Assembly (NCBI GenBank): GCA_027021195.1 | Contig: JALUUW010000003.1 | Span: forward strand, 4,843-68,842 | Direction of reading: 5' to 3' | DNA length: 64,000 nt | DNA from: Candidatus Pacearchaeota archaeon | Lineage (GTDB): Archaea; Nanobdellota; Nanobdellia; Pacearchaeales; GW2011-AR1 | In this document: positions 1,717 through 21,775 of the stretch, piece after piece | Layout of the letters: every line of letters starts with the position of its first letter | Numbering within the stretch: position 1 is the stretch's first letter | Translations under genes and position numbers: made by a program | Notes under the pieces: model-generated | Seen by the model: only the letters and a program-made list of their open reading frames with translations | Databases searched by the model: none | What the model was told of the DNA's origin: nothing

Positions 1717-1793
1717 CGAGGGAGAGTTAAATATAAAATATATTTTGACCATGGAAGAAAAATAGGGTATGGGAAGCTAAAAAAAGAGCAGAT

Positions 1794-2372: not shown

Positions 2373-2390
2373 AATAAAATATGGTAATTC

Positions 2391-3623: not shown

Positions 3624-3839
3624 CTAAGGAAAACAGCCTAATTTTTCATGTGCTTTTATTAAAAAATCCCTGAAATCTTTTTTGCTTTCCCATACAGGAT
3701 TTAACTTGTTCCTGATTAAATCAAAATCTATCTTCTTTAATCTTCTAATCTCTGCTAATTCACTTATCATTCTTTCGTACTTTTCTTTTGATATTTTTGC
3801 CATTTCCATAATAGCTAAATGGGGCTGATATTTATACAA
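3624..3839 (-). CDS. hypothetical small protein (71 aa), last gene of the rSAM operon
   Basis: ORF lies 23 nt downstream of the HExxH gene on the same strand. No recognisable motif. Confidence 0.3.
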   Translation of the reverse strand: MYKYQPHLAIMEMAKISKEKYERMISELAEIRRLKKIDFDLIRNKLNPVWESKKDFRDFLIKAHEKLGCFP

Positions 3840-3862
3840 TTTTCTAAATAAAACAGGGAATC

Positions 3863-4531: not shown

Positions 4532-4547
4532 ATTCTTTTTTTGAAGG

Positions 4548-5072
4548 TTAAGCTTTTTGTTTATTTTTTAATAGTAATAAAATAACATTATGTTTATGGG
4601 GGGGCAAATTATCATGCTCTTCAATGGGGGTCTCATACATTCCTTCCTTCATTATTTCCCAATCAGAATATAGGTTTTTTAATTGTTTTAATGAAGGATA
4701 AAACCTATTTTGTGCATTTCTTGCCATAGGGTCTTTATCTGAAAAACAGATGATAAAAGTATGTCCTTGCTCAGAGGTATGTGTTTGTATCTTTTTTAAA
4801 ATATTTTGTGCAGTTACCTTATCTAAAAAATGCAAAACTAACGAAGCAATTATTAAGTCATATTTCTCTTTGAATTCAAAATTTGTTATATCTTCATTAA
4901 AGAATTTAAAATTTTTCTGGGAGATTTCCATAGGTCTTTTATCTACTCCAAGAACTTTTACGCCTTGTTTGGCAAATCTGAGAGATTTATGCCCTTTCCC
5001 ACAACCCAGATCCAAAACATTTTGAGGCTGTAGTTCTTTAAGATATTCTTTGACTTTATCCCTTATTATCAT
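4548..5072 (-). CDS. class I SAM-dependent methyltransferase (TehB-like, Methyltransf_11/25)
   Basis: VLDLGCGKG motif I. Post-I acidic residue. DLIIASLVLHFL motif II/III. Confidence 0.75.
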   Translation of the reverse strand: MIIRDKVKEYLKELQPQNVLDLGCGKGHKSLRFAKQGVKVLGVDKRPMEISQKNFKFFNEDITNFEFKEKYDLIIASLVLHFLDKVTAQNILKKIQTHTSEQGHTFIICFSDKDPMARNAQNRFYPSLKQLKNLYSDWEIMKEGMYETPIEEHDNLPPHKHNVILLLLKNKQKA

Positions 5073-5108
5073 TTATTAATTCTTTAAGTTTATTTTATTT
5101 AATTCTTT

Positions 5109-6170
5109 CTAATCTTGTGAGCTTCCCTGCACATATTCTTTAAAACACATAGGGTCTTTGGCCATATAATCTCCTGTTACTGCATAAGCAATTGCCCTAC
5201 ATCCTCTGCAGTGCACCACTTTATCACAAAGAGTATTCTCCCTCATTTTATTCAAATCTCTTAAATTTTGCATTACCTTGTTCTCTAAAATTAAATTACC
5301 TATTCCGTCACTTATGCGACCTATTTTAATAGGAAGTCTTCTACAAGGATAAACAGTTCCGTCCGATAATATTGAAAGCATTCTAAATCCTGCAGAACAC
5401 CCCCAAAGATATTTATTTTGCTCCTTTGCTGTTTTTATTACTTCGTTTTCTTTTTCCAATATTTGCCAAAGAACATCAGATTGAAGGACATTAATCTTAT
5501 CTCTATATTTTTCATTTAGTCTTTCAGTTTCTTTAACCATCTCGTAGATTTCTTTAGCATTAATAAATTCAGGATCTTTAATTCCTAAGTTTGAATCTGG
5601 ATTATAAGTTTTAAAACCCACTTTTTTAGCTCCTGCTAAAATTGCATTTTGGATAACATCCTCAAACTCTTTTTTATTAGACTGCATAAGAGTCATGGCT
5701 ACTGTAACATTTAAGCCTTCTTTTGAAGCATTTCTTATCCCTTCAATTGCCATATCATATGCAAAATCTTTTCTCCTAATTTTATTATGTGTGCGCTTAG
5801 ATCCATCAAGAGAAACTTGTATTGCTTCAACTTTTTGCTCCAAAAGTTCTCTAGCTTTTTTAGGAGTAATTAATGTGCCATTAGTTAACAAATTTGTTAT
5901 AACTTTTTTCTTACAAGCATATTCTAAAATTTCAAGATGATCTTCCCTCATTAAAGGATCTCCTCCCGAAATTGCGATTCTGGGTATCATCTCCCACCTT
6001 TTTGCTGTCTCTGCTAAATCATCTATCATTGATTTTACTTCATTTAAACTCATTAAATTATCATCTTGGATGTGGTCTACATTCCCTTCGTTGTTATGAT
6101 AACAATGGGAGCATTTAAGATTACAATCATTTGTGGAATCCCCTTGAATATATAAGTGTCTTTTAGCCAT
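5109..6170 (-). CDS. radical SAM / SPASM-domain enzyme
   Basis: CNLKCSHC Cx3Cx2C motif at residue 16 with no N-terminal RRE-like extension. ISGGDPL. C-terminal SPASM cysteines (CSAGF...YPCRR...CDKVVHCRGC). Confidence 0.8.
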   Translation of the reverse strand: MAKRHLYIQGDSTNDCNLKCSHCYHNNEGNVDHIQDDNLMSLNEVKSMIDDLAETAKRWEMIPRIAISGGDPLMREDHLEILEYACKKKVITNLLTNGTLITPKKARELLEQKVEAIQVSLDGSKRTHNKIRRKDFAYDMAIEGIRNASKEGLNVTVAMTLMQSNKKEFEDVIQNAILAGAKKVGFKTYNPDSNLGIKDPEFINAKEIYEMVKETERLNEKYRDKINVLQSDVLWQILEKENEVIKTAKEQNKYLWGCSAGFRMLSILSDGTVYPCRRLPIKIGRISDGIGNLILENKVMQNLRDLNKMRENTLCDKVVHCRGCRAIAYAVTGDYMAKDPMCFKEYVQGSSQD

Positions 6171-6212
6171 TACAAATTAAGAGCAGTTTTTCTAAATCTA
6201 TTTGGAATTTTT

Positions 6213-6338
6213 TTATTCTAAAGAATAGACATCATCTGCGTAACATGCATCTGGACCACAAGCATCGCAAGGGTCACAGTGATAACGATCTTTCTCTTGA
6301 GACGCTTTATTAGTTATATAAGAACTAATATCTAACAT
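6213..6338 (-). CDS. candidate RiPP precursor peptide (41 aa, Cys/Asp-rich core)
   Basis: Hand-translated ORF not in the track: MLDISSYITNKASQEKDRYHCDPCDACGPDACYADDVYSLE. ATG start. Stop lies 42 nt upstream of the rSAM start on the same strand. TTTTTATA element about 55 nt upstream. Confidence 0.45.
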   Translation of the reverse strand: MLDISSYITNKASQEKDRYHCDPCDACGPDACYADDVYSLE

Positions 6339-6392
6339 ACCCTTAAGAAAAGCTTGTTCCTCAGCAGTTCTCTCCAGTTTATTTGTTTTTGC

Positions 6393-6400
6393 TATAAAAA
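6393..6400 (-). promoter_or_regulatory. candidate archaeal TATA box (TTTTTATA) for the precursor-rSAM operon
   Basis: AT-rich octamer about 55 nt upstream of the peptide ATG on the minus strand. Confidence 0.25.
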
Positions 6401-6801
6401 GCCAACAACCTTAATATATTTAAATTTTATTGTAATGGATTTATTTTGTAGTGCCTAAGTAACTTAAAAAGTTATTTATTTGCAGATTTTTCAGAAGAAA
6501 CAACCTCAAACTCAGTTGAGCCTATATAATTTCCATCTACATTAAACACTGTTTTGCAAATCCCTAATTGTAATGATTTGTCAAAACAAAATCCTCTTCA
6601 TTTACATTTCTTGAAAACAAATTGTTTCATTTAATCCATATACCCCGCAGCTCTGCTGCGGTTGGGAGCTTCACTTCAGAACGAGATGGGGCAGAAGTCA
6701 TGACTCCAGAATTAGCGGATGTGTCTTAACAGGAAGTCTTTCTCCTCTGGAAGAATACGTTCTTCTCTCAAAAACCCTTCCCTATCAGCTATTCTAAGGG
6801 T

Positions 6802-7386
6802 TCACTCAGATGTTCTGCTGATTTCATTCAGATATTCTGCTAATTGCCTCATATCATCAGGCTTCCCCTCTAATTCAGAATAATATTTATTGTCCATTTC
6901 AAAGTAAAACCTATTCACGAAATCAATAGTCTCTTTGTATTTGCTTATGCCTTTTTTCTCAACTAATTTATTAAAGCAGTCAATATATCTCATTAGGGCT
7001 TCAGTCAACTCCCTTGTTTCCTCGCTCTCCTTAAGCAGGGCTTTATCCATATTAGAATATGCTTTATCCAAAAATTCAATTACTTCTTTATAATTCTCAA
7101 CCCCTTTTTTTTCCACCAATTTGTAAAAAGCACACGCATATTCTGTTAAAGCCATAGTCAGGTCCCTGATTTCCGGGTCTTTGATTCTATGTATCTCTTT
7201 CTGGAATCTATCCATATCATCAAGTTCTTTTTCTATTGTCTCTTGGAAAGTTTGGTTTTTTATTTTTGACCGAAAAATGATTCCGTGTTCCACTAGACCT
7301 TTATGGAATCCTCTTAATCCTTTCAATATCTTTTCATTTAATTTAATTTTTTCTGCTTCTATCATTTTAATCTTACATAGTTCCAC
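6802..7386 (-). CDS. hypothetical coiled-coil protein with an internal ~42-aa tandem repeat
   Basis: Repeat LTxAL..Y...F.KLVEKKG...YKE.I.F seen twice in the translation. Confidence 0.4.
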   Translation of the reverse strand: MELCKIKMIEAEKIKLNEKILKGLRGFHKGLVEHGIIFRSKIKNQTFQETIEKELDDMDRFQKEIHRIKDPEIRDLTMALTEYACAFYKLVEKKGVENYKEVIEFLDKAYSNMDKALLKESEETRELTEALMRYIDCFNKLVEKKGISKYKETIDFVNRFYFEMDNKYYSELEGKPDDMRQLAEYLNEISRTSE

Positions 7387-7624
7387 CTACCCTTATGCAT
7401 TAATAAAAAAGACAAAAAAAGAAATTATCTTTCAGGTCTTATTTCTTTTCAGATCCTTCAGTCATTTCTAAAACCTTCTCATTTGGCATAGAGGTTTCTA
7501 CAAGACCCAAATGGAAATTCTCAAGACCTTCCAACATTTCCCTGTTAAATCCACATAGGGGCATTTTCTTTTCCTCCTAATTTAGTTAACTATAATATAT
7601 AATTACTTTATATAAACTATTCTA

Positions 7625-8668
7625 TTGGATAATTTTACAAAAAAGAAATATTTATATATTGGTACTTATTTTATGTATAAAATGATGAAATTGGATGTAT
7701 ATGACCGGAGAATTTTGGAGGTTTTAATAGAAAACTCCGAAGAGCAAATAAGCGCTATTGCCAAAAAGATAAGGCTCAGAAGAGAAAACGTTAACTATCG
7801 GATAAACCGCATGGTTAAATCAGGTCTGATAAAAGAATTTAACACAATCTTAAATGAAAGAGCGTTGGAGCTTTCCCACTATGTTGTTTTTGTAGAACTG
7901 ATTAAACTGGAAGAAAAAACAGAGCTGGAAATTATAGATTATCTCAGGAATAGCTCCTTTGTGAGCTGGATAGGAACTTCAGCAGGGAGATGGAGCCTGG
8001 TTTTTGATATAATAGCCTATGATAAAGGCTCAAATTTTGAAAAGATATTAACGGAGTTTCTCAAAAGATTTGGCGGAGATCATATTGAAAACTACGAGGT
8101 TTTGAGGCTGAATAAAAGAGATTATTTTGCATCAAAGTTAATTGGCAAAGAAAAATATTTCCATGAAAATGCTGAAAGCAAGGCCTCTCTTAAAAGATTG
8201 GACAATATAGATCTCAGAATACTTTCATTGCTAAACAAAAATTCAAGAAAAACTTTGGTAGAAATATCTTCTAAAATAGGCTTGACTCCAAATGGAGTTA
8301 ATAATAGGATTAAGGGCCTAATCAATAATGGCATTATAACAGGATATACGATTTCCATTAATTGGAAGAAATTAGGCTATGAGTGGTTCACAATACAAAT
8401 TAAGCTGCACAAGTATGGTGAAGAAGTATATGCCAAAATGGAATCTTTTTTCAGGAATCACAAGAAAGTGGTGTTTTACTACAGATATCTTGGAGGAAGC
8501 TGGGACTATGATATAGGGGTTTTGGTTCAGAATTCAGACGAATTAAGGGATTTTATCAATGAATTCAGGAGAAATCTTTCGGATGTTTCCAAAATCTCTG
8601 ATGTTTTTTTGACTCTTGAAGAAATAACAGGATATAAAATGCCTGAAGGGGTTTTTAATCCTTCTTAA
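7625..8668 (+). CDS. tandem (duplicated) Lrp/AsnC-family transcriptional regulator
   Basis: Two HTH_AsnC-like segments (LDVYDRRILEVL...ISAIAKKI and LDNIDLRILSLLNKNSRKTLVEISSKIGL), each followed by a RAM-like domain. True start is probably at an internal Met near 7673-7685. Confidence 0.6.
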   Translation: MDNFTKKKYLYIGTYFMYKMMKLDVYDRRILEVLIENSEEQISAIAKKIRLRRENVNYRINRMVKSGLIKEFNTILNERALELSHYVVFVELIKLEEKTELEIIDYLRNSSFVSWIGTSAGRWSLVFDIIAYDKGSNFEKILTEFLKRFGGDHIENYEVLRLNKRDYFASKLIGKEKYFHENAESKASLKRLDNIDLRILSLLNKNSRKTLVEISSKIGLTPNGVNNRIKGLINNGIITGYTISINWKKLGYEWFTIQIKLHKYGEEVYAKMESFFRNHKKVVFYYRYLGGSWDYDIGVLVQNSDELRDFINEFRRNLSDVSKISDVFLTLEEITGYKMPEGVFNPS

Positions 8669-11025: not shown

Positions 11026-14000
11026 TTAAATTGATTCCGGCCTTAATATAATTGCACAGCCAGGATTTGTATTTCCTCCAAGATCTTCGCATTTGATGTA
11101 ATGCCTCTTTCCAGACTCCCACTCGCTGGTATGGGTTCTTGAAAATACATCTGTCATAGGCTTTGCATCCTCTCCTCGAATGTCAAATCCGCATCCATTA
11201 AAACTGTAATAGCATTTTGCATCTTCGTCTGTTATTACCTTTAACTCTCCCTCGCTGTAAGCCCTTACTATTTTTGGAGCTTCAGTGTCAAGCTCTAAAG
11301 TGAATACTGCATTTCCATAAGCAGTATTTCCTGCATCGTCTTCGCACTTTACATAAATATTGTAGTCTCCTTTCATCATAGTGTTGAAGTTCTGCTTATG
11401 CCTCCTGGAGAAGCTCTCAAAAAACAGAGTCATGTCATCATATCCTGAGAAACTGTAATAACAGGAAGACTTTCCATTCCTCGCCCCTCCGGAAGTCTCA
11501 ACTTCAAGGTCTACTGAGATTGGCTCGAACCATCTCTTGATTTTTCCCTGAGGGGTTATTGAGGTTATGTTAAGATTTGTCTCTGAAACATAGAGTGTAT
11601 AAACAAAATCCTCTTCATTTACATTTCTTGAAGTGTTCTCTGGAGGAAGCCATGGCTGGTCTTTGCACCTGATGTAAAAATTGTTTTCTCCTTCTGCAAG
11701 CCCTTTAAGAGTGGTGCTGCACTGCCATCCCAACAGCTCCCTCTCTGTTATTCCTGTTTTGCAATCCATTGAATTGCTCATTTCCTCATAGCTTTTTCCG
11801 CTTTCAGTGCTGTACCTGCATTCAGCAGGCTCACTTAGGTAAATCTGAAGAGGCGTTTCTGTAACATTATATTTCAGGAAACTTTCATCCTCTGGAACTG
11901 CAACTGTTCTTGAATGGTCTACAGCAGTTGTGTCTGGCCCTGAGTTAATGCAGAAATTCACCGTATACTCGTCAATATTGTAGTTTCCATGATAGTCCTT
12001 GCACTTAACATACATATTCATGTTTCCAAACATCTCTCTTATGTCTCCTGCAACATCATAGACGCTTAAGCTGTCCAGGCTTGGCATTGAAAATGAAAAA
12101 GTGTGGTTGAGAGTGAATGCATTTTGCTCAACAGGGTATCCTCTCATTTCGTCATATTCTGTTTTCTGGAAATCAAACTTGCACTGCGCAAATTCATCTG
12201 TTTTTAGGCTGAAGCTGACAGGAGTGAATTCAGGGATGCAGTTTCCGTTTTCCCTTCTTATCTCAACTCTTTTTGCATCTTCGTTATTGAACTTGTAGCC
12301 CTCGTCAATATCTCCTGCAGAAATTACAGGAGGATTGCTTTCATAAGGGATGCTCTCGCAGACAGGGTTTTCTGTTTCTTCATTAAGGATTCTGCATGCC
12401 TGCCCAAGGCTCTCGCATCTGTATCTTGTGCAAGGCATTCCTTTTTCAGCAAGCTCGTTGCATCTTTTGCAATTCTCTCCTCCTGCAGGAGCCTGCCATG
12501 GCATGCATGTAAACTCAACAACCCTTTCTTTTGTCTTTCCCCATCCAACAACTATGACATATACCATTATTATTACTGCTGCTGCCAGTGCGTATGTTCC
12601 AAAATTCAATCCCCATTTGAGCCATCCGACCTTCATTAGGCCAAGTATTCCTCCTGCAACCCCTCCTGCTACTGTCAGGACTGTTGCTGCATTTCCAGAC
12701 CTTCCCAAAGACTGGGCAATAAATGCTCCTGCAACTGTTCCTATTGCAAACCCTGCTGCTGCCCATGCGAATGCTCCTATGGATGTATATGTGGTAGAAA
12801 CAACTGCTTCAGATCCTGCAAAAATTGTCTTTGTTCCCAATAATGATGTTGTTGTTTCATAAGCTCCATAAGTGTAGGTGGTAGTTCCTATTCCCAAATG
12901 GCTAATGGCCATAATCAAGGTTCCAGCTCCTCCTGAAACTTCTCCAAGCTGCTTTATTACAGCCTGTATTTTATCCTCTTTAGGCTTTTTGCCAGAATTA
13001 CCGCTTATTGAAGAGATGTAATCATCAATTTCCTGGGGCTTTACATACTGGCCTTCTACAGGATCTGCATAATCCTTATATCTTTCCCATGAAACACTTG
13101 GAGACCGCGTTACTTTAATGTTATCGCTTCCCTCTCCAATATAATTGATATAGCTTCCGCAATCTCCGAGGCTGATGCAAAGGTCATTCATCTGCTCTGC
13201 AAAAACTCCTTTCTCGCAATTGCAGTTCTCAATGCACTCCCACTTTCCTCTTGAGTTTTTTTGGTATATGACAGTGCATTTTTGATTTGCCATTGCGCAT
13301 ATGCTGTCTGCAATAGAGCTTTCCCTTTGCCTGAACCCTCTTGGATATCTTCCAACGCAGACATCAAAGCTGAACCCGTCATCAATATTAATGTTTTTAA
13401 TCATGCAGTGCTTGTTTTTATTGCATTTTTCAGCCATGTTTCCCTGTGAATTGTAATCAAGGCACTTTGTAGCTTCGTTCACAACGCATGAGGCTACTGA
13501 AAAGCTTTTTCCGTTTTCCTCTATTTCTGATTCTGTGCAAAGCCCCCCTCTATAGTCACTGCATCCCTCTGTCTTTACTTCTCCATCAATACATATTTTT
13601 CTCCAGTGCCTGCTTCCTGCAGGATCTTTCCCTTCTCCTATATAAGAGTCATAAGCACACCAGCTCTCCCCGTTCTTTCTCTCTTTTCCGCCTGTCTCAG
13701 GAGATGCAGGGCAGTTTTTGTTTTTGCATATATAATCTCCGTCTTTTGCTTTTTTTCCTCCTGCCTCGTCTGAAGGCGCGCACATGCTTCCAAGGAAATA
13801 ATTGCAGTTTCCGCACTCTTCTGACTGAATATTGTCTGAATCAGGGTTGCAGCTTTCCTGTTTGCTTAACACCTTTCCGTTATTCCACGAAAAATCCCTG
13901 TCTGAGGAATAGATGTTTTCCCTGTTTCCGCAGGAATCAATCCAGTAAATCTCGTCTTTTCCCTCAATGCAGCTTATGCTTGCCTGCCTTTCACATTCAA

Positions 14001-14769
14001 CCCCCATTTCTTTAAATTCCGGATTTGAACATAGATGGTCTTTGTAAAAGTCTCCCTGAATGCTGAGGCATCTTGATTCTGTTGTAAATTCGCATCTGCC
14101 TCCTTCAAGGATGCATGCCCCTTCAAACTGGCTTGCAGAAAGAGCAAGGCATTCAAATTCTGTTTCAAGGTCTCTAAAGTCTTTTTTAAACCCGTAAAAA
14201 GATGAAAGTTTTTCACACCTTTTTTCTGTAACAAACTGCGCATTATCTCCCAAAACACAGCATCCTTTCTGGCATTCGCTTACTAAACATGATTCTTCAT
14301 TTTTCCATATTCCTCCTCCAGACTCGCATTTTTTTCTGGTGGATTTTGTTGTGCATAGCCCCTCATCTTCGTCAATGCAGCATCCTATCTTGCAGTCAGC
14401 AACTTCATCGCATTTTGTCGGAAGAGGATTGTCGCAGCTTTCAGTATCAAAAAACCCGACATCCTGGCATATTGCTCCGCTTTTTGTAACAGGGCAGCAT
14501 TTCCATGACTCTTCTTCTGCAGAAACAATTCCTATCTGTTTTATTGATAAAAATCCCACTAAGAGGCTTGCTCCTGCAGCAATGAGATTCCCAAGACTGT
14601 CTTTTCCTTTATCTCTTTTTATTATAATGGAGCTGCTGTCAGGCTGGCTGCTCATTCCTATAACATAGCTGGTTGCAGGACTCATATTAACCAGAAGGAA
14701 AATCTGGAACATAACAACAGCTAGCAAGCTTAGTTCTGTTTTTCTTTCCCTGATTTTTATTGACTTCAT
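11026..14769 (-). CDS. giant (1247 aa) Cys-rich surface protein with a central Gly/Ala-rich multi-TM region
   Basis: N-terminal hydrophobic segments. Cys-rich ectodomain homologous to the 8690..10177 protein. Residues ~600-730 have several hydrophobic G/A-rich helices. C-terminal Cys-rich beta-rich domains. Confidence 0.5.
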   Translation of the reverse strand: MKSIKIRERKTELSLLAVVMFQIFLLVNMSPATSYVIGMSSQPDSSSIIIKRDKGKDSLGNLIAAGASLLVGFLSIKQIGIVSAEEESWKCCPVTKSGAICQDVGFFDTESCDNPLPTKCDEVADCKIGCCIDEDEGLCTTKSTRKKCESGGGIWKNEESCLVSECQKGCCVLGDNAQFVTEKRCEKLSSFYGFKKDFRDLETEFECLALSASQFEGACILEGGRCEFTTESRCLSIQGDFYKDHLCSNPEFKEMGVECERQASISCIEGKDEIYWIDSCGNRENIYSSDRDFSWNNGKVLSKQESCNPDSDNIQSEECGNCNYFLGSMCAPSDEAGGKKAKDGDYICKNKNCPASPETGGKERKNGESWCAYDSYIGEGKDPAGSRHWRKICIDGEVKTEGCSDYRGGLCTESEIEENGKSFSVASCVVNEATKCLDYNSQGNMAEKCNKNKHCMIKNINIDDGFSFDVCVGRYPRGFRQRESSIADSICAMANQKCTVIYQKNSRGKWECIENCNCEKGVFAEQMNDLCISLGDCGSYINYIGEGSDNIKVTRSPSVSWERYKDYADPVEGQYVKPQEIDDYISSISGNSGKKPKEDKIQAVIKQLGEVSGGAGTLIMAISHLGIGTTTYTYGAYETTTSLLGTKTIFAGSEAVVSTTYTSIGAFAWAAAGFAIGTVAGAFIAQSLGRSGNAATVLTVAGGVAGGILGLMKVGWLKWGLNFGTYALAAAVIIMVYVIVVGWGKTKERVVEFTCMPWQAPAGGENCKRCNELAEKGMPCTRYRCESLGQACRILNEETENPVCESIPYESNPPVISAGDIDEGYKFNNEDAKRVEIRRENGNCIPEFTPVSFSLKTDEFAQCKFDFQKTEYDEMRGYPVEQNAFTLNHTFSFSMPSLDSLSVYDVAGDIREMFGNMNMYVKCKDYHGNYNIDEYTVNFCINSGPDTTAVDHSRTVAVPEDESFLKYNVTETPLQIYLSEPAECRYSTESGKSYEEMSNSMDCKTGITERELLGWQCSTTLKGLAEGENNFYIRCKDQPWLPPENTSRNVNEEDFVYTLYVSETNLNITSITPQGKIKRWFEPISVDLEVETSGGARNGKSSCYYSFSGYDDMTLFFESFSRRHKQNFNTMMKGDYNIYVKCEDDAGNTAYGNAVFTLELDTEAPKIVRAYSEGELKVITDEDAKCYYSFNGCGFDIRGEDAKPMTDVFSRTHTSEWESGKRHYIKCEDLGGNTNPGCAIILRPESI

Positions 14770-14770
14770 T

Positions 14771-15601
14771 TTAAAGCCCAGGAGGTATTATGCAGCTTCT
14801 CACTGCAAACCTGAATTTTTCTTTGCTGTTTTCATGCCTGACAGTATAGATTGTTTCTAAATCGCTTGTCTTGAATCTGTCTATATTGAATTGGGGATTA
14901 ATAATCATAAAGCCAAGATAGTCAAAATTGCAGAACCTTGCCTCTTGACTCAAAATCTCCTGCACAACAGCTGCAATATCATAAAATCTGCTTGGAATAT
15001 TCGCTTCAAGGTTTTCTTTTTTTGAGCTCTCCTCTGTTCTTGTAAGAGTAATCTCGCTGTCTGTTTTAATAATCACTCTCTTTGAGATTAAGTCAACTTC
15101 AAATCCCCTGTAATCCATGCTGACTTCATAATTCTGTTTTTCAAGATTGTTTTTTAATTCATCAAAACATACTTCCATGTCCTCTGCAATATAATTTTTT
15201 ATTTCTTTTTTTAGATGGCTCATCAGCATTGGCTCGTGATTTATGCAGGGAACATAATAATTTTGAGTATAGCATAAATAAGAGATATTTACAGGGTCTT
15301 CACCTTCAAACCTGAAGGTTTTGTAGAGCTCTGGTTCAATATATCCTCCCTGCATGGAGATTGTGCCAATAGCTTCCTTGACCTTGCCTTCAATACACGA
15401 GCTTAAAAAAGCTTCAGGATTTTTTTCAGGGCTCTTTCCTGTTTTTATAGGAGCTTCTCCCCTAAAGAATAAAAACGATGAAATTGCAACAACAACAATC
15501 ATGCCTGCAATTATGAAAATAGTAACCTGCGAGCGTTTTGCCTTTGGAAAAGCCCTTTTATTAAACAGCAGGCCTAAGGCACGAGTTCCTCTTTTTTTCA
15601 T
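14771..15601 (-). CDS. type IV pilin-like protein (class III signal AKRS|QVTIFIIAG)
   Basis: Paralog of the 10179..10967 protein. Stop overlaps the start of the giant gene. Confidence 0.45.
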   Translation of the reverse strand: MKKRGTRALGLLFNKRAFPKAKRSQVTIFIIAGMIVVVAISSFLFFRGEAPIKTGKSPEKNPEAFLSSCIEGKVKEAIGTISMQGGYIEPELYKTFRFEGEDPVNISYLCYTQNYYVPCINHEPMLMSHLKKEIKNYIAEDMEVCFDELKNNLEKQNYEVSMDYRGFEVDLISKRVIIKTDSEITLTRTEESSKKENLEANIPSRFYDIAAVVQEILSQEARFCNFDYLGFMIINPQFNIDRFKTSDLETIYTVRHENSKEKFRFAVRSCIIPPGL

Positions 15602-15706: not shown

Positions 15707-16447
15707 CTAATCCTCTGTCTCAACTCTTGGAGCAAGAATAAAATTAAGTTCAAGATGCTCTGTTTTAATATCCATTCTCAGAGGATGGTCATTTGCGAAT
15801 TTCAGTGTGGTTTTCTCAGAAAGCTTTGACCCTTTCATAAACTTCTGAAGATATTCCAGACTGTATTTTGCCTTGCAGTTTTCTGCTTCTATTTTTGCCT
15901 CGTCTCCTGAAAATTCAGACTTTGCTGAGTTTATTCCTTTAGCTTCTATTATAAACTTTCCATCTTCAATTATGAATGAGCATGCGTCAGCCACAACAGC
16001 GCAGTCTTCAATAGAAGCAATCAAATCTCCTGAATCCATGTCAACTCTTGAGCTGAATTCTAAGTTAGGCATTTCTTTATCCTCGCTTTCAACATCAATA
16101 AGGCCTAAGGTGAAGCCCCTCTTAATCTTGTCCTGAATCTCTATGCTCAATAAGTTCTCCTTTTTTTCCAGAACTAAAGAGCTTCCGGAACCGCATCTTT
16201 TCAGAATTTTTTTCAGGCTGTCTAAATTAATGCCCAAAACCTCTTTTCCAGTTTCAAACTGGGAAAAAGCACTTTTTGGAAGCCTGAAACTAACCATTGC
16301 AACATTTGCAGGATCCATTGCCGTAATGCTCATCCCGAATTCACCTATCTTAATTCTTACCTCTGTAACCAACTCGGAAATTATATCAACAGCTTTTGAT
16401 AATAATGCAGGGTCTTCAAGTTTTACTAGCATTTTAGCTTCTATCAA
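15707..16447 (-). CDS. pcn: DNA polymerase sliding clamp PCNA
   Basis: 246 aa. Clear similarity to archaeal PCNA throughout (ITAMDPANVAMV, LKKILKR, LGLIDVE, FILAPRVE). Confidence 0.85.
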   Translation of the reverse strand: MIEAKMLVKLEDPALLSKAVDIISELVTEVRIKIGEFGMSITAMDPANVAMVSFRLPKSAFSQFETGKEVLGINLDSLKKILKRCGSGSSLVLEKKENLLSIEIQDKIKRGFTLGLIDVESEDKEMPNLEFSSRVDMDSGDLIASIEDCAVVADACSFIIEDGKFIIEAKGINSAKSEFSGDEAKIEAENCKAKYSLEYLQKFMKGSKLSEKTTLKFANDHPLRMDIKTEHLELNFILAPRVETED

Positions 16448-16588
16448 AGTACGGCTTGTTTTTTAAGTATTATTGTAATTAAGGATAAGGTATTTATTTA
16501 AACTTTGCCCACTCTTTCATAAGATGTTAAGTGAGCTCAGATTATTTTTTACAGAAGGAAGATTATTGAGCTAATTAAGAGATATAAA

Positions 16589-18202
16589 ATGCAGGAAAAT
16601 CTCAAAAATTCATCAGGGGAGCAAAGCTTCAAAGAGCAGAGGATAAGGAAGATAACTCATTTGTATTACTCAAGGCCGGACATACAGAAAGCAATTTTTG
16701 AATTCTCCAAAAACAGGGAAATTTCACCAAGATATTTTGAAGGCTTCGGCAAAAGGCCTGACAGCTTCCAGTATAAAGGAGATATATTTGAGCTTGTAAA
16801 AAAAGGAGCGACATCCTTTCATTGCTCAGAGGAATTGTGGCAGGACCCTCTTAAAATAACCACTGGAATGACAGAATCCCAGTCAAATGAGCTAAGAATC
16901 GGCTGGGACTTATTAATTGATATTGACTGCAAGTGGTTTGATTATTCCAAGCTGGCGGCAAAAGCAATAATTGGAGTTTTGAAAGATAATGGAATTAAAA
17001 ATCTGGGATTGAAGTTCTCAGGAAGCAAAGGATGGCACATCTTAATTCCCTGGAAATCTTTTCCAAAAGAAATAAATGGGGTCAGTTCATCAAATCTTTT
17101 TCCAGAGCTTCCAAGAAAAATTATAAATTATATAAGATTCCAGTCAGAAAAAAAACTAAAGGAGATGCTTCCTGAAGATTTTGAGGAGCAGTTTAAAGGA
17201 GTGAATATTAAGAGAGGGATAAAATGCAACAGGTGCAGTGAAATTGCCAGCCAGTATGTTTATGCTGTTTTTTCCTGCAGAAAGTGCGGAAGAAAAGAAT
17301 ACAAAAAATTCCATTCAAAAGGCCAGATGAAAAAATACAGCTGTCCTGAATGCGGGGCTGAATTTAAAATAGAGAGCCAACTTACCTATCATGAGTGCCA
17401 TCAGTGCAGGATAAATTCAAAATATAACCCAGATGATTTCTCGCAAACAATACAGGAGGATTTGTTTGATTTAATGGGGCTGGATATTATTCTGGTTTCT
17501 CCAAGGCACTTGTTCAGGATGCCTTATTCCCTCCACGAGAAAACAGCACTTGCAAGTGTAGTAATTGATGAGCAGGATATTGACGGTTTTCAGTTAAAAG
17601 ATGCCAGCCCTATGAAAATCTCTTCAGAAAAAATAAAAAATTTTTCCCCTGTCTCAGCAGAAGAAGCTGAAGCTGAAGCTCTTGTGAGAGAGGCTCTTGA
17701 CTGGACAAAAGACCTTCAGATTGCAAGAGGGGAAACAGAAGAAAAAATAACGGGAAAATATGCAGAGTACAAGCCGGTTAAGCTTGACAATCTTTCAGAG
17801 CAGAATTTTCCGCCATGCATAAAAAATATTCTAAAAGGAATTTCAGACGGAAAAAAGAGGGCTTTGTTTGCTTTAATAAATCTTTTCAGAAGCGTAGGAA
17901 TGGACAAGGAAAAAATGGAGAATGAAATTTATGAGTGGAACAAAAAAAACAATCCGCCGTTAAAAGAAGGGTATATTAAATCCCAGCTTTCATGGGCTTA
18001 CAGAAAAAAGCCAATAATGCCCCCTAACTGCAAGGAATTTTATCAGGGAATTGCAGCATGCCAGCCAGATGATTTGTGCCTCAACAAAGGAATAAAGAAT
18101 CCAGTTAATTATGTTGTAAGAAGAAGCATTTCAAAAAGAAAAGGGCATAGAAAGTCCAGGACAAATGGAAACAGTAAGGATAATTTTAAAAAGAAGAATT
18201 GA
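16589..18202 (+). CDS. priS: DNA primase, fused PriS catalytic domain plus PriL-CTD-like Fe-S domain (single-chain archaeo-eukaryotic primase)
   Basis: AEP motifs GWDLLIDIDC and FSGSKGWHIL. Zn-ribbon cysteines. C-terminal half carries four conserved Cys (FPPC, PNC, AAC, DLC), typical of the PriL C-terminal 4Fe-4S domain. Confidence 0.7.
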   Translation: MQENLKNSSGEQSFKEQRIRKITHLYYSRPDIQKAIFEFSKNREISPRYFEGFGKRPDSFQYKGDIFELVKKGATSFHCSEELWQDPLKITTGMTESQSNELRIGWDLLIDIDCKWFDYSKLAAKAIIGVLKDNGIKNLGLKFSGSKGWHILIPWKSFPKEINGVSSSNLFPELPRKIINYIRFQSEKKLKEMLPEDFEEQFKGVNIKRGIKCNRCSEIASQYVYAVFSCRKCGRKEYKKFHSKGQMKKYSCPECGAEFKIESQLTYHECHQCRINSKYNPDDFSQTIQEDLFDLMGLDIILVSPRHLFRMPYSLHEKTALASVVIDEQDIDGFQLKDASPMKISSEKIKNFSPVSAEEAEAEALVREALDWTKDLQIARGETEEKITGKYAEYKPVKLDNLSEQNFPPCIKNILKGISDGKKRALFALINLFRSVGMDKEKMENEIYEWNKKNNPPLKEGYIKSQLSWAYRKKPIMPPNCKEFYQGIAACQPDDLCLNKGIKNPVNYVVRRSISKRKGHRKSRTNGNSKDNFKKKN

Positions 18203-20064
18203 CTCTATCAGACATGGGAAAAAGAGTTCAAGCGTCATGTCTTTTAGTGATATCTCTGCTTTTTGTAATTCTATCAGCATCTTTTATGGCTGCAGAAGGC
18301 AACTCAACAAGTTCTGATGCGGACAAAATCAATAAAGCATATGGGTGTCTTGAAGATAAAGTAAAGGGAAAATGCCCCTCTCTTTCTCTGGAAGAGAGAA
18401 TTTTCTCTCTATTAGCTATAGGAGAGTGTAAAGAAGAGCTTCTTTCTAATTCAAAAGACGAGGAGTGCTGGCCAAAATCTGATTGCAAGGTTAAGCCTAC
18501 AGCTCAGGCTATTCTGGCCCTTAACGGAGCAAACAAAGATACAAGCAGGGCAGAAGAGTGGCTTTTATCTCAGAATTCCACTCCTTCTGAAATTGACTGG
18601 TTTCTGCAGATTGAAAGCGCAGAAGCCACAACATGTAATGTGGATTACTCAGGAAATTCTTATCAAGTATCTATTGACGCTGAAAAAAAACTGAGCTCTA
18701 ATGCAGGAAGTTGCCTCAGTCTTTATGGAGGGGATTACTGGTTTAGAATCTCTCCTTCATGCTATGATAACGAATTCGCAATTTCATGCGACAAGCCTTT
18801 TCTTACAACGCTTTTGTTTAAGAAAAAAACCTCTTCAACAATTCATGTCTCTCAAAAAACAAACTCTGCTGCATCAGAAGGGACAACAATAGAGAAGGTT
18901 GGCTCTCTTTGCTTTTCAAAAGGAGGCTCCTGTGATTATGAGGGGAGCTTATGGGCTGCTTTGGCACTAAACTCACTGGGTAAAGATGTTTCATCATTTA
19001 TGCCTTACCTTATAACAATGGCTGATGAGAATGGCAAGTATCTTCCGGAGTCTTTTTCCTATATTCTGACAGGATATGAGGATTTTCGCAATGAATTGCT
19101 CTTAAAACAAAAAAGCAACAAGTACTGGATGGAATCAGGGGACAAGTTTTATGATACTGCTCTTGCATTGTATCCGTTGCAGTATGAAACTCCTGAAGAA
19201 AAGACAAATGCAGTAAACTGGCTTTTGGAATCCCAGGACAATGAAGGGTGCTGGGAAGGCAACATAAGAAATACTGCTTTTATTCTTTATTCTGTCTGGC
19301 CAAAAGACTTTGCTGTTGATGAGGAGGATGAAAGAGTTGATTGCGAGAGTGCAGGATATTATTGCATGTCTGAGATAAACTGTGAAGGAGAGGTTCTTCC
19401 GGACTATTCCTGCTCAGGAGTTTTTAAGTGCTGCGACACCCCTATCCCTCTGGAAACCTGTGAAGAAATGGGCGGACAGGTCTGCAACTCAAATCAGGCA
19501 TGCGTTGAAGGAAGAGTTGAAGACTCTCCAGACCTTGATTTTGGAGAGGCTTGCTGCCTGGGTGGCTTTTGCGAAGACTCTGCCCCCGTTGAAGAAGAAG
19601 TGTCAGAATGCGAGTCATACGGAGGGGTGTGCAGAACAAACGGGTGTTTTGATGATGAAGAGGAATCTTCCTATTCCTGTGACTTCACTACTGACTCCTG
19701 CTGCACTGTAAAAATTTCTCCTAAAAAAAGCTATTGGTATGTCTGGGTGCTGTTGTTTTTAATAGGGCTTGTAGCTATTGGCATAGTTTTCAGGGATAAA
19801 TTGAGGCCTTATTGGTTTAGGCTGAAGTCAAAGTTTAAAGGCAAAGGCTCTGGAACTGGAAGCCCTGCTCCAAGAAGGCCAGGGTTCCCTCCTCCGTCTT
19901 CAAGAATTCCTTTAAGAAGGAGAATTATGCCAAGAAGAATAATTCCTCCGCAGCAGACTCCTCAAAATATTCCAAGACAATTTCGCCCTTCTGTTCAAAA
20001 GAAACAAAAATCAAGCAAGGAGCTTGATGAAGTTCTTAAAAAGCTCAGGGAAATGGGAAATTGA
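18199..20064 (+). CDS. secreted surface protein with a Cys-rich membrane-proximal module, C-terminal TM anchor and Pro-rich tail
   Basis: Sec-type signal peptide. Cys-rich region (CCLGGFC). TM helix YWYVWVLLFLIGLVAIGIVF. PRRPGFPPPSS tail. Confidence 0.45.
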   Translation: MTLSDMGKRVQASCLLVISLLFVILSASFMAAEGNSTSSDADKINKAYGCLEDKVKGKCPSLSLEERIFSLLAIGECKEELLSNSKDEECWPKSDCKVKPTAQAILALNGANKDTSRAEEWLLSQNSTPSEIDWFLQIESAEATTCNVDYSGNSYQVSIDAEKKLSSNAGSCLSLYGGDYWFRISPSCYDNEFAISCDKPFLTTLLFKKKTSSTIHVSQKTNSAASEGTTIEKVGSLCFSKGGSCDYEGSLWAALALNSLGKDVSSFMPYLITMADENGKYLPESFSYILTGYEDFRNELLLKQKSNKYWMESGDKFYDTALALYPLQYETPEEKTNAVNWLLESQDNEGCWEGNIRNTAFILYSVWPKDFAVDEEDERVDCESAGYYCMSEINCEGEVLPDYSCSGVFKCCDTPIPLETCEEMGGQVCNSNQACVEGRVEDSPDLDFGEACCLGGFCEDSAPVEEEVSECESYGGVCRTNGCFDDEEESSYSCDFTTDSCCTVKISPKKSYWYVWVLLFLIGLVAIGIVFRDKLRPYWFRLKSKFKGKGSGTGSPAPRRPGFPPPSSRIPLRRRIMPRRIIPPQQTPQNIPRQFRPSVQKKQKSSKELDEVLKKLREMGN

Positions 20065-20443
20065 TGGGGTATATAACAAGATAAGGATGATTGCGGGCTT
20101 TATGATAAAGCAAAAATTTTCCAGATAATGCAAATACTCTGCAATTATATTTAGAAACAATGAAAAGATTTGGCGAGGAGATGATGTTTTTCGCAACATA
20201 GGTATTGGAACTGTTTGCTCTTCTTGTGGAAATCATTATGAATTTGATTTTTACCATGATAAGAAGATGTTAGAAAGACTTGCTGAAGGTCCGGAACAAG
20301 AATTGCGTTGAATGTTTTGTTCAGGATGGCTCTATCCGCTTAGCTATGAGGAAGGGTATCTGCCTATATCACTGACAGAATTATGCATTCGTGTTCTTTC
20401 TAAATAAAAAAACTTTATTAACCATATATTTCTTTACATACTT

Positions 20444-21775
20444 ATGAAAAAAAGCATAATTATTCTTGCAGTTTTATTACTGGCAATTCAATTTGCCTCA
20501 GCAGTTGAGTTTGACATGAAATCAGAATTCAGTCAGGGAGAAACAATTATTGCCAGAGTTTCTGGAAATTTCATAGACCCTGTTCTCAGGGAAAACATAC
20601 ATTTTTACAGGGGCAATGTGCCGACTTCAATAATCTATGATGTTGCAAGAATAAGCGGAGAGTTTTACATTTATGCTATTCTCTCTGGAAAAAAAGAGGG
20701 AAATTATTCAATAGTGATAGAGAATGCAAAATACATGAAAGGCTCTCAGGTAGTTGAAGATGCAATAACAAAAAACTTCTCAATAACCAACAGTACAGCA
20801 GATTTTTCAGTAGATCCCGGGTTTATTATAACAAAAGGGAAATTTTTTGTGCAGGTTCAGAATCTGAAGGATTATAAAATAAATGTCAATGCAAAAATAC
20901 TTGCAGATTCAGGAAACAATGGCGGAGGGCTTTTTGATTCTTTGTTTGGAAACAATGGTGAAACAAATGTTTATGAGAAATCAGTTGCTCTGAAATCTGG
21001 CGAGATTAAAAAGATTGATTTTGAATTGGCAAATCTAACTGGCTCAGAACTGACAACTCTTGAAGTAAGCAGTGAAAATCTAAAATACAGCATCCCTCTT
21101 TATATTATAACGAATATGACTGGCGAGGAAGGGGAAAAAGAAAAGGGGATTAAACTTAAATTTGATCCTTCTGAATTAAATGTATCAATCCCTACTTCTT
21201 CAAACACTACAAGAATCATCTATCTGCGAAATTCCGGAGAAGTGGCAATAGAGAATATTTCTTTATCAGTGTCTGATTCCCTGAAGGATTATCTTTCTCT
21301 TTCAGCATATGATATTAATGGGCTTGAGGGGAACTCAAGTGTAAAAATAGAGGTTTATCTTTCTTCAGGAGATATAGAAAGAACTTTTGAAGGGCAGATA
21401 ACTGCAAAAGCTCCTTCAGCAGCTGAAGGAAATGACGTCTATGCTTATGCTGCTGTTTTTTTGAATTTTGTAAAAGGGTTTAAGCCTTTGGACAATGAAA
21501 CAGGAGAGATAAACTATGGAAAAGAAAATACCTGTTCGGAAATGAATGGTGAAATCTGCGCTGAAAATATGGAGTGTTACGGAGACCTAAAATATGCTTT
21601 AGATGGTGTTTGTTGTTTGGGAAGCTGCAGGGAGCTTAAGGAGAGCCCTACAGGAAAAATAATCGGATGGTTAATAATAGTTCTTGTTGCAGTCTTCCTT
21701 ATATGGTTTTTCCGGTTTAAATACAAGGAGGCAAAAAAAGAAGTAAATCTTTTGAAAATTGCCAAGAGAAAGTGA
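20444..21775 (+). CDS. secreted surface protein with a C-terminal Cys motif (CCLGSC) and TM anchor
   Basis: Signal peptide MKKSIIILAVLLLAIQFASA. C-terminal CSEMNGEICAENMECYGD..GVCCLGSC followed by a TM helix. Confidence 0.4.
   Translation: MKKSIIILAVLLLAIQFASAVEFDMKSEFSQGETIIARVSGNFIDPVLRENIHFYRGNVPTSIIYDVARISGEFYIYAILSGKKEGNYSIVIENAKYMKGSQVVEDAITKNFSITNSTADFSVDPGFIITKGKFFVQVQNLKDYKINVNAKILADSGNNGGGLFDSLFGNNGETNVYEKSVALKSGEIKKIDFELANLTGSELTTLEVSSENLKYSIPLYIITNMTGEEGEKEKGIKLKFDPSELNVSIPTSSNTTRIIYLRNSGEVAIENISLSVSDSLKDYLSLSAYDINGLEGNSSVKIEVYLSSGDIERTFEGQITAKAPSAAEGNDVYAYAAVFLNFVKGFKPLDNETGEINYGKENTCSEMNGEICAENMECYGDLKYALDGVCCLGSCRELKESPTGKIIGWLIIVLVAVFLIWFFRFKYKEAKKEVNLLKIAKRK

What the first reader, a model, noticed from the sequence alone, without database searches (positions are those of the whole stretch)
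16589..18202. Single-chain primase: PriS catalytic domain fused to a PriL-CTD-like Fe-S domain
The 537-aa protein has the AEP catalytic motifs and zinc stem of PriS. It also has a C-terminal ~150 aa with four spaced cysteines (FPPC, PNC, AAC, DLC), like the 4Fe-4S domain of the primase large subunit. No separate priL is seen nearby. Such fusions are a hallmark of Nanoarchaeota/DPANN compaction.
Basis: partly seen in the sequence, partly recalled or inferred. Interest (0 to 1): 0.5.

Follow-up and report, generated by a model that had tools for sequence, protein, structure and literature searches.

The report
Single-chain DPANN replicative primase (PriS–PriL fusion)

Summary
The ORF at 16589..18202 (+) is real and encodes 537 aa. 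Residues ~15-345 are an archaeo-eukaryotic primase (PriS) catalytic domain with all three catalytic motifs. Residues ~401-509 are a PriL C-terminal domain with four cysteines at the Fe-S ligand positions and the D-G-K-K-R/F initiating-nucleotide motif. Profile, fold and residue-by-residue comparisons with the characterised Nanoarchaeum equitans primase NEQ395 all agree. The gene sits in ordinary archaeal chromosome, divergent from PCNA, and this arrangement recurs in most of 80 related genomes. No second PriS or PriL is present in the 64 kb window. The fusion is published: Iyer 2005, Raymann 2014, Dombrowski 2020 (all Undinarchaeota and cluster-2 DPANN) and Schneider 2023 (biochemistry). One correction: the "zinc stem" is not the canonical PriS zinc motif. 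It is an ~70-aa module with four invariant CxxC pairs, probably two zinc ribbons, inserted between motifs II and III, and the short (NEQ395-like) half of the family lacks it. In passing, about half of the close relatives have lost all four Fe-S cysteines together while keeping every catalytic and nucleotide-binding residue. Verdict: reader supported; known kind; low novelty.

The parts
16589..18202 (+). Single-chain primase gene (537 aa plus stop)
   Evidence: ORF list. An identical protein is in public collections on a 72.5 kb contig.
16631..17623 (+). PriS-type AEP catalytic domain (residues ~15-345)
16820..16822 (+). H78, equivalent to NEQ395 H58 (binds the elongating nucleotide)
   Evidence: Residue map. 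H in 73 of 81 relatives, N in 8.
16910..16927 (+). AEP motif I, LLIDID (D111, D113 are metal ligands)
   Evidence: Invariant in 81/81. Equivalent to NEQ395 D87/D89 (PMC10250227).
17018..17038 (+). AEP motif II, SGSKGWH (S144, K147, H150)
   Evidence: Invariant in 81/81. Equivalent to NEQ395 S119/K122/H125.
17210..17422 (+). Inserted cysteine-rich module with four CxxC pairs, predicted to be two zinc ribbons (residues 208-278)
   Evidence: All eight Cys invariant in the 36-sequence alignment and present in ~80/81 loci. Predicted beta-rich with pLDDT 80-91. Weak generic zinc-ribbon matches only. Absent from the short-insert half of the family.
17483..17536 (+). AEP motif III region (D299, H307, R310, SLH316)
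   Evidence: Invariant in 81/81. Equivalent to NEQ395 D194/H202/R205, all at offset +105.
17624..17788 (+). Linker (residues 346-400) with a predicted long helix at 363-379 followed by a low-confidence loop
   Evidence: AF2 models. Analogous to the helical linker of NEQ395 that sets primer length (PMC10250227).
17789..18115 (+). PriL C-terminal (Fe-S type) helical domain (residues 401-509)
17816..17818 (+). C410 (FPPC), putative [4Fe-4S] ligand 1
   Evidence: Aligns with the FPPC of P. abyssi PriL. Equivalent to NEQ395 C289.
17846..17869 (+). D420-G-K422-K423-R424-A-L-F427, the motif for the triphosphate of the initiating nucleotide and the primer 5' end
   Evidence: D420, G421, R424 and F427 invariant in the 36-sequence alignment. 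R424 80/81 and F427 79/81 in the loci. Equivalent to NEQ395 R301/R303/F306 (PMC10250227) and PriX D70/R72-K73-R74 (PMC5700102).
18029..18031 (+). C481 (PPNC), putative [4Fe-4S] ligand 2
   Evidence: Aligns with the PPNC of P. abyssi PriL. Equivalent to NEQ395 C364.
18059..18061 (+). C491, putative [4Fe-4S] ligand 3
   Evidence: Equivalent to NEQ395 C376. Kept or lost together with the other three.
18077..18079 (+). C497, putative [4Fe-4S] ligand 4
   Evidence: Equivalent to NEQ395 C384. Kept or lost together with the other three.
18116..18199 (+). Basic, low-complexity C-terminal tail (12 K/R in 28 residues), predicted disordered
   Evidence: Sequence. pLDDT below 50. Length varies among homologs.
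15707..16432 (-). PCNA gene, transcribed divergently from the primase
   Evidence: PCNA_N and PCNA_C. A PCNA homolog lies upstream on the opposite strand in 68 of 80 related loci, within 600 bp in 64.
16433..16588 (.). AT-rich intergenic region shared by PCNA and the primase (presumed divergent promoters; not analysed further)
   Evidence: Sequence.

Best explanation
This is the cellular replicative primase of a DPANN archaeon of the Pacearchaeota/Woesearchaeota group. It is one polypeptide that does the work of the usual PriS-PriL heterodimer.

Shown here by sequence, profile and fold:
- Residues ~15-345 form the AEP catalytic domain. D111, D113 and D299 are the metal ligands. S144, K147, H150, H307, R310 and H78 form the pocket for the elongating nucleotide.
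- Residues ~401-509 form a PriL C-terminal helical domain. It has four cysteines at the [4Fe-4S] ligand positions and a D420-G-K-K-R424...F427 motif.

Inferred from the characterised homologs NEQ395 and Sulfolobus PriSLX:
- The C-terminal domain holds the 5'-triphosphate of the initiating nucleotide (and Mn2+/Mg2+ through D420) on the template.
- The PriS active site adds the second nucleotide. The enzyme then extends a short RNA primer as a monomer.
- The helical linker (residues 346-400) acts as a tether whose length limits primer length.
- The Fe-S cluster is probably structural or regulatory rather than catalytic.

Speculative: the lineage-specific double zinc-ribbon module between motifs II and III may bind single-stranded template or a replisome partner.
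For: ORF and motifs.

PriS half:
- PF01896 E 1.4e-5 and TIGR00335 E 7e-5.

PriL half:
- PF04104 24.6 bits, above its 22.4 cutoff, matching only profile positions 72-191 of 266.
- NCBIfam PriL models matching only their C-terminal parts.
- P. abyssi PriL 9f26_B aligned over FPPC and PPNC..C..C.

Comparison with NEQ395: all 16 residues probed by mutagenesis map to identical residues, except R301, which maps to K422. Offsets are constant within each motif block (PMC10250227).

Conservation across 80 species-level genomes: catalytic residues 81/81, R424 80/81, F427 79/81. The four cysteines behave as one unit, present together or absent together.

Chromosomal, vertically inherited context:
- Housekeeping neighbours including aaRS genes, aRF1, Cdc48, Cbf5 and Nre.
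- Divergent PCNA upstream and a conserved gene downstream in most of the 80 loci.
- No second PriS or PriL in the window.

Literature: the fusion is reported for all Undinarchaeota and cluster-2 DPANN (PMC7414124; PMC3914693). NEQ395 is an active monomeric primase (PMC10250227).
Against: - The PriS Pfam hit is just below the curated cutoff (26.0 against 26.8 bits).
- Whole-chain Foldseek hits are not significant; the best is E 0.04.
- The AF2 model is poor for the conserved residues 44-92.
- I could not retrieve the NEQ395 sequence, so that comparison rests on published residue numbers, not a direct alignment.
- Only 64 kb of the genome is visible, so a separate PriL or a second primase elsewhere cannot be excluded from these data.
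- Metal content and activity are untested.
Confidence: 0.9

Rival explanations
1. It is a primase-polymerase from a plasmid, virus or integrated element, like Thermococcus PolpTN2 or pRN1 ORF904, and not the host's replicative primase.
For: PriS-PriL-like fusions do occur on mobile elements (PMC3973330). Raymann et al. raised horizontal transfer as a possible origin (PMC3914693). There is a weak PriCT_1 hit at residues 426-464, E 0.002, below its cutoff.
Against: The neighbours are housekeeping genes, and no integrase, helicase or Rep fusion is present. The gene order around PCNA and the primase is kept in most of 80 species-level genomes. GC content is unremarkable around the gene. Phylogeny in PMC7414124 supports a single ancestral fusion that was inherited vertically.
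Confidence: 0.03
2. It is a repair-type AEP polymerase (LigD PolDom, Prim-PolC or PrimPol-like) rather than a replicative primase.
Against: PF21686 scores 14.3 bits against a cutoff of 27.4, while the PriS and PriL models score better. No Ku or ligase gene lies nearby. A PriL C-terminal domain with the initiating-nucleotide motif is specific to primases (PMC5700102). The higher Z for LigD probably reflects the shared minimal AEP core without PriS-specific inserts, which is my inference.
Confidence: 0.03
3. The C-terminal domain is a cluster-free helical bundle of the PriX, pRN1 helix-bundle or PriCT type. Its four cysteines bind zinc, form disulfides or are incidental, so no Fe-S cluster is present.
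Against: The four cysteines align with the ligand motifs of P. abyssi PriL. They match the spacing of NEQ395 C289/C364/C376/C384, and mutating those abolishes the 410 nm absorbance (PMC10250227). They are kept or lost strictly together, as expected for the co-ligands of one cluster.
Confidence: 0.06
4. The fused gene coexists with a canonical priL (or priS plus priL) elsewhere in the genome, so it is an accessory primase rather than the only one.
For: Only 64 kb of the genome is visible. One related MAG, JAACWA01, carries two diverged copies of the fused gene.
Against: No such gene is in the window. Cluster-2 DPANN genomes are reported to have the fused version where cluster-1 genomes have canonical priS and priL (PMC7414124). 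N. equitans has no other AEP domain (PMC10250227).
Confidence: 0.05

Closest known systems
NEQ395, the monomeric primase of Nanoarchaeum equitans (Schneider, Bergsch and Lipps 2023, PMC10250227; first noted by Iyer et al. 2005)
   Same: Both are a single chain with an N-terminal PriS catalytic domain, a helical linker and a PriL C-terminal domain with four cysteine ligands. All 16 residues tested by mutagenesis have identical counterparts here, except R301, which corresponds to K422, and the spacing within each motif is the same. Both lack the PriL N-terminal domain.
   Different: This protein is 144 aa longer (537 against 393). It has about 80 extra residues between motif II and motif III, which carry the four CxxC pairs, about 16 more in the linker, about 20-25 more at the N-terminus, and a ~30-aa basic tail. 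No direct alignment was possible because the NEQ395 sequence could not be retrieved. Activity, sequence specificity and primer length are unknown for this protein.
[quoted passage not shown] 2020, PMC7414124; Raymann et al. 2014, PMC3914693)
   Same: Same gene family and the same lineages. Homologs are labelled Pacearchaeota, Woesearchaeota or Nanoarchaeota. The representative search found 741 clusters at 50% identity.
   Different: Those papers treat the fusion as a phylogenetic marker. In the passages I retrieved by term search, they do not describe the zinc-ribbon insertion or the cysteine-free C-terminal domains seen here.
Canonical archaeal/eukaryotic PriS-PriL heterodimer (for example P. 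abyssi 9f26, S. solfataricus 1zt2, human primase)
   Same: Same catalytic fold and motifs. Same Fe-S type C-terminal domain with the initiating-nucleotide site.
   Different: The canonical enzyme has two polypeptides, and PriL has a large N-terminal domain that docks on PriS; that domain is missing here. The canonical zinc motif lies close to the active site (PMC4434180), just after motif I in the sequence (my own knowledge, from the human p49 ligands C121-C131). Here that segment has a single cysteine, and the cysteine-rich module sits after motif II instead.
PriX of Sulfolobus PriSLX (Holzer et al. 2017, PMC5700102)
   Different: PriX is a separate subunit and has no Fe-S ligands. This domain is fused to PriS and has four.
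PolpTN2 (Thermococcus nautilus plasmid pTN2, PMC3973330)
   Same: It is also a PriS-like domain fused to a PriL-like domain in one chain.
   Different: It is plasmid-encoded, and Raymann et al. report no sequence similarity to the DPANN fusions and an independent origin (PMC3914693). The gene here is chromosomal and syntenic with PCNA.

Membership tests
DPANN single-chain PriS-PriL(CTD) primase (NEQ395 type) | AEP motif I (hhhDhD) | tested here: met
   LLIDID at residues 108-113. D111 and D113 are conserved in 81/81 relatives.
DPANN single-chain PriS-PriL(CTD) primase (NEQ395 type) | AEP motif II (sxH) with the S/K/H nucleotide-binding residues | tested here: met
   SGSKGWH at residues 144-150. 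S144, K147 and H150 are conserved in 81/81.
DPANN single-chain PriS-PriL(CTD) primase (NEQ395 type) | AEP motif III (hD) followed by the conserved H and R | tested here: met
   D299, H307 and R310 are conserved in 81/81. Their offset to NEQ395 D194/H202/R205 is a constant +105.
DPANN single-chain PriS-PriL(CTD) primase (NEQ395 type) | Prim (AEP) fold of the N-terminal domain | tested here: met
DPANN single-chain PriS-PriL(CTD) primase (NEQ395 type) | A PriL C-terminal domain in the same polypeptide | tested here: met
DPANN single-chain PriS-PriL(CTD) primase (NEQ395 type) | Four cysteines at the [4Fe-4S] ligand positions | tested here: met
   C410, C481, C491 and C497 align with the PriL motifs and match the NEQ395 ligand spacing. 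They are kept or lost together in relatives. Actual cluster binding cannot be tested here.
DPANN single-chain PriS-PriL(CTD) primase (NEQ395 type) | Initiating-nucleotide / primer 5'-end motif (two basic residues plus Phe; NEQ395 R301, R303, F306) | tested here: met
   K422, R424 and F427 sit at identical spacing from the first cysteine. R424 is conserved in 80/81 and F427 in 79/81.
DPANN single-chain PriS-PriL(CTD) primase (NEQ395 type) | No PriL N-terminal (PriS-docking) domain | tested here: met
   Only profile positions 72-191 of 266 of PF04104, and about 202-353 of 360 of NF002588, are matched. The segment between the two domains is a ~55-aa linker.
DPANN single-chain PriS-PriL(CTD) primase (NEQ395 type) | Direct sequence relatedness to NEQ395 | tested here: inconclusive
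   The NEQ395 sequence could not be retrieved with these tools. Indirect support: published residue numbers map exactly, and short-insert proteins of about 390-470 aa, the NEQ395 length class, are found by phmmer at E <= 1e-69.
DPANN single-chain PriS-PriL(CTD) primase (NEQ395 type) | It is the only PriS/PriL gene in the genome | tested here: inconclusive
   None is present in the 64 kb window. The literature reports the fused version as the form found in cluster-2 DPANN (PMC7414124).
DPANN single-chain PriS-PriL(CTD) primase (NEQ395 type) | Monomeric, template-dependent RNA primer synthesis | not testable with these tools
   This needs biochemistry.
Canonical PriS zinc knuckle / zinc stem | Four Cys/His/Asp ligands in the segment following motif I, next to the active site | tested here: not met
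   The 30 residues between D113 and S144 contain one cysteine (C114) and no histidine. The position of the canonical motif is taken from my own knowledge of the human p49 ligands and from PMC4434180. The eight-cysteine module lies between motifs II and III and is absent from the short-insert half of the family.
PriX (third primase subunit of Sulfolobales) | A separate polypeptide with a PriL-CTD-like fold and no Fe-S ligands | tested here: not met
Mobile-element primase-polymerases (pRN1 ORF904, PolpTN2) | Plasmid or viral context, often with a fused helicase | tested here: not met
   The context is chromosomal and housekeeping, with conserved PCNA synteny and no helicase domain.
LigD PolDom / Prim-PolC repair polymerases | A family-level sequence match and association with Ku or a ligase | tested here: not met

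The most novel reading that the evidence does not exclude
The window's protein may represent an undescribed architectural subtype of the DPANN single-chain primase. In this subtype, a double zinc-ribbon module inserted between motifs II and III takes over the role of the missing canonical PriS zinc motif, for example in gripping the template or docking to the replisome. Its family also switches naturally between C-terminal domains with four Fe-S cysteines and domains with none, while the catalytic and nucleotide-binding residues stay invariant. If so, evolution has already run the experiment on whether a cellular replicative primase needs its [4Fe-4S] cluster. The sequence patterns themselves are solid. 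What is uncertain is the function of the module, whether the cysteine-free enzymes are the only primases in their genomes, and whether this has already been reported outside the searchable library.
Probability: 0.3. Interest if true: 0.55.

Novelty: already known. Interest (0 to 1): 0.22.

Why it matters
For the window itself, the result is a confident annotation. The gene is the replicative primase of a cluster-2 DPANN archaeon and sits next to PCNA. It also serves as a lineage marker, because the fusion is treated as a shared derived character of Undinarchaeota plus cluster-2 DPANN (PMC7414124).

Single-chain primases are useful minimal models for the more complex eukaryotic enzyme (PMC10250227).

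The side observations could matter more than the finding. The family offers natural variants with and without the zinc-ribbon module, and with and without the Fe-S ligands. These could be compared directly to address the disputed role of the primase Fe-S cluster.

Tried and rejected
- The first AF2 model, from 36 close homologs, was poor for the conserved residues 44-92. No more diverse alignment could be submitted under the tool's input restrictions.
- Model coordinates are not exposed, so I could not measure Cys-Cys distances or the position of the zinc module relative to the active site.
- I could not obtain the NEQ395 sequence. The single genome-collection scan returned the 80 closest loci, all of the Pacearchaeota/Woesearchaeota type, and the paper has no supplementary text on file.
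- A neighbour-joining tree of the N-terminal 386 residues was star-like, with cysteine-free forms scattered through it. I do not trust it to count how many times the cysteines were lost. The similar replacement motifs (PPNFDKDYY..GII.PTEEE; PPNFDN.IYKEIGVY) argue for few events or for exchange of the domain.
- Literature searches for a report of Fe-S-less DPANN primases returned only the NEQ395 paper. Searches for a statement of where the canonical zinc ligands lie failed, so that point rests on my own knowledge.
- A recurrent C-terminal ...(D)NFKKKN motif turned out to be present in only 18 of 120 and 5 of 81 relatives, so I dropped it as a general feature.
- The rivals (mobile-element primase, repair AEP, PriX-like cluster-free domain) were considered and rated low, for the reasons given under rival explanations.
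Full report
**Observation**

The ORF at 16589..18202 on the + strand exists as described. It starts with ATG and encodes 537 aa. The three AEP motifs are present: LLIDID (residues 108-113), SGSKGWH (144-150), and D299 followed by H307 and R310. The protein has 14 cysteines: C79, C114, eight in four CxxC pairs (213/216, 230/233, 252/255, 270/273), and four in the last 130 residues.

**Domain identity**

- Pfam gives DNA_primase_S (PF01896) on residues 117-327 at E 1.4e-5. The score of 26.0 bits is just under the 26.8 cutoff.
- Pfam gives DNA_primase_lrg (PF04104) on residues 370-484 at 24.6 bits, above its 22.4 cutoff. Only profile positions 72-191 of 266 are matched.
- NCBIfam PriL models match residues 381-534 through their C-terminal parts only, with a best E of 5e-8. 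TIGR00335 PriS matches residues 120-341.
- Against solved structures, the best sequence hit is P. abyssi PriL (9f26_B). The alignment runs through FPPC and PPNC...C...C.

So the N-terminal part is a PriS-type AEP domain. The C-terminal part is a PriL C-terminal domain without the PriL N-terminal domain.

**Comparison with the characterised enzyme**

The N. equitans primase NEQ395 (393 aa) is a monomeric, highly active primase. Residues H58, D87, D89, S119, H125, D194, H202 and R205 are needed for polymerisation. R301, R303 and F306 are needed for initiation. C289, C364, C376 and C384 hold a [4Fe-4S] cluster that is dispensable in vitro (PMC10250227).

Each of these residues, and K122 (whose alanine mutant kept about half its activity), has an identical counterpart here. 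The one exception is R301, which corresponds to K422. Offsets are constant within each block: +24/+25 for motifs I and II, +105 for motif III, and +121 for C410 through F427. The D420-G-K-K-R424 stretch also matches the D70/R72-K73-R74 triphosphate-binding motif of PriX (PMC5700102). I could not retrieve the NEQ395 sequence, so this mapping stands in for a direct alignment.

**Family and context**

- The protein has more than 3,300 database relatives. The closest are 58-70% identical and about 500-540 aa long, and those that carry a name are labelled Pacearchaeota, Nanoarchaeota (Nanobdellota) or simply archaeon.
- 379 loci were confirmed in the species-level genome collection, and the best 80 were fetched. 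These are labelled Woesearchaeota, Pacearchaeota or Nanoarchaeota, apart from a few labelled otherwise.
- An exhaustive search of 50%-identity representatives gives 741 clusters at E <= 1e-3 and 313 at E <= 1e-30.
- Across the window protein and the 80 loci, D111, D113, S144, K147, H150, D299, H307 and R310 are conserved in 81 of 81. R424 is conserved in 80 and F427 in 79.
- The window is ordinary archaeal chromosome. It carries Val/Ile/Leu-type, Met-type and Asp/Lys/Asn-type aminoacyl-tRNA synthetases, aRF1, Cbf5, two Cdc48-type ATPases, Nre, a topoisomerase I and a tRNA-Lys.
- PCNA lies immediately upstream on the opposite strand. A PCNA homolog sits in that position in 68 of 80 loci. A 616-aa gene follows on the same strand in 68 of 80.
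- Family HMMs run against all six-frame ORFs of the window find no second PriS- or PriL-like sequence. The best non-self score is 5.1 bits for the C-terminal-domain model and 8.1 bits for the N-terminal one.

All of this fits a vertically inherited replicative primase and argues against a mobile-element origin.

**What is already known**

The fusion was noted in N. equitans by Iyer et al. (2005). Raymann et al. (2014, PMC3914693) extended it to Nanohaloarchaeota and Parvarchaeota. Dombrowski et al. (2020, PMC7414124) reported it for all Undinarchaeota and cluster-2 DPANN, with a single origin inferred from phylogeny. Schneider et al. (2023, PMC10250227) characterised it biochemically.

**Correction on the zinc stem**

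In canonical PriS, the zinc motif lies close to the active site (PMC4434180). In the sequence it lies just after motif I; that position is my own knowledge, from the human p49 ligands C121-C131 relative to D109/D111. Here the 30 residues between D113 and S144 hold one cysteine and no histidine.

The eight cysteines instead form a ~70-aa, beta-rich module (pLDDT 80-91) between motif II and motif III. This is where canonical PriS carries unrelated helical inserts (PMC4434180). The module matches only generic zinc ribbons, namely eL43/L37ae, HVO_2753-like, TiaS and TFIIB, and never reaches a curated cutoff.

I could parse 107 of the 150 listed 50%-identity representatives. Of these, 47 have a long motif II-to-III spacing of about 140-180 aa, nearly all with 7-10 cysteines in the insert. 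The other 60 have a short spacing of about 40-120 aa with two cysteines at most. NEQ395, at 69 aa, belongs to the short class. The module is therefore a lineage-specific insertion. Its function is unknown. Template or partner binding is a guess.

**Mechanism**

- Shown here: both domains, all catalytic and nucleotide-binding residues, and the four cluster ligands are present and conserved.
- Inferred from NEQ395 and PriSLX: the C-terminal domain presents the initiating NTP, with D420 and K422-R424 on the triphosphate and F427 at the primer-template junction. The PriS site forms the first dinucleotide and then extends it. The helical linker (predicted helix 363-379, followed by a flexible loop) tethers the two domains and limits primer length.
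- Speculative: any role for the zinc module and for the basic C-terminal tail.

**Side observation on relatives**

Among 76 related genomes with a complete C-terminal domain, 40 have the four cysteines (two of them carry a fifth), 36 have none, and none has an intermediate number. The cysteine-free forms carry conserved replacement motifs and keep K/R422, R424 and F427. Among the 120 closest 90%-identity clusters, the split is 99 with four or more cysteines against 20 with none.

This all-or-none behaviour is good evidence that the four residues act as a single unit in the window's protein. It also means that many apparently cellular primases in this lineage lack the Fe-S ligands. I found no report of this in the searchable literature. 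I could not establish how many times the cysteines were lost.

**Verdict**

The kind is already known and interest is low. The residual novelty lies in the zinc-ribbon subtype and in the cysteine-free relatives.

Noticed in passing
L001-L080 (for example L021, L026, L052, L071, L076); P0049, P0083, P0103, P0121: About half of the close relatives of this primase have lost all four Fe-S cysteines of the C-terminal domain together: 36 of 76 complete species-level genes, and 20 of the 120 closest clusters. All catalytic residues and the K/R-x-R...F initiation motif are kept. No complete domain has one to three cysteines. I found no report of this in the searchable literature.
   Followed up: partly
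window 17210-17422; P0121-P0270: The eight-cysteine (four CxxC) module is a lineage-specific insertion between AEP motifs II and III. Roughly half of the family's 50%-identity representatives have it, with a spacing of 140-180 aa. The other half, the NEQ395 length class, have a cysteine-free spacer of about 40-120 aa.
   Followed up: partly
P0122, P0128, P0177, P0189, P0248, P0210 (relatives, 759-1019 aa): Several family members carry inteins (splicing domain plus LAGLIDADG endonuclease) inside the primase, at two or more sites. One site is near motif II and another just after motif III. The window's gene has none. P0201 instead has an alpha/beta-hydrolase region after the primase, which may be a gene-calling fusion.
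   Followed up: partly
L049 and L052 (both from MAG JAACWA01): One MAG carries two copies of the fused primase that are 59% identical, one with four cysteines (L049) and one with none (L052). L052 has the full PCNA synteny. L049 has only the downstream neighbour. This could be true paralogy or a mixed bin.
   Followed up: partly
window 11026-15601 (-) and 18214-21775 (+): PCNA and the primase are flanked by large, cysteine-rich, apparently secreted or membrane proteins of 1247, 276, 616 and 443 aa with no convincing Pfam match. Homologs of each are present in 52-68 of the 80 related loci, nearly always on the same side and strand. The 616-aa gene starts 12 bp after the primase stop (ATG at 18214), or overlaps the stop by 4 bp if the TTG at 18199 is used.
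   Followed up: partly
window 550-1716 (+), 5109-6170 (-), 50317-51624 (+): Three radical SAM proteins with SPASM domains lie within one 64 kb stretch of what is presumably a small genome.
   Followed up: no
window 2391-3416 (-); window 1-8000: An LD-carboxypeptidase (Peptidase_S66), an enzyme of bacterial murein-peptide recycling, is encoded in an archaeal contig. The first ~8 kb of the window is also lower in GC (0.29-0.33, against 0.35-0.43 elsewhere).
   Followed up: no
window 55104-57398 (+), 57805-59988 (+); 46245-48653 (-); 44318-45541 (+): There are two near-adjacent Cdc48-type double-AAA ATPases, a bacterial-type topoisomerase I with a C-terminal zinc ribbon, and an archaeal Nre protein.
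   Followed up: no
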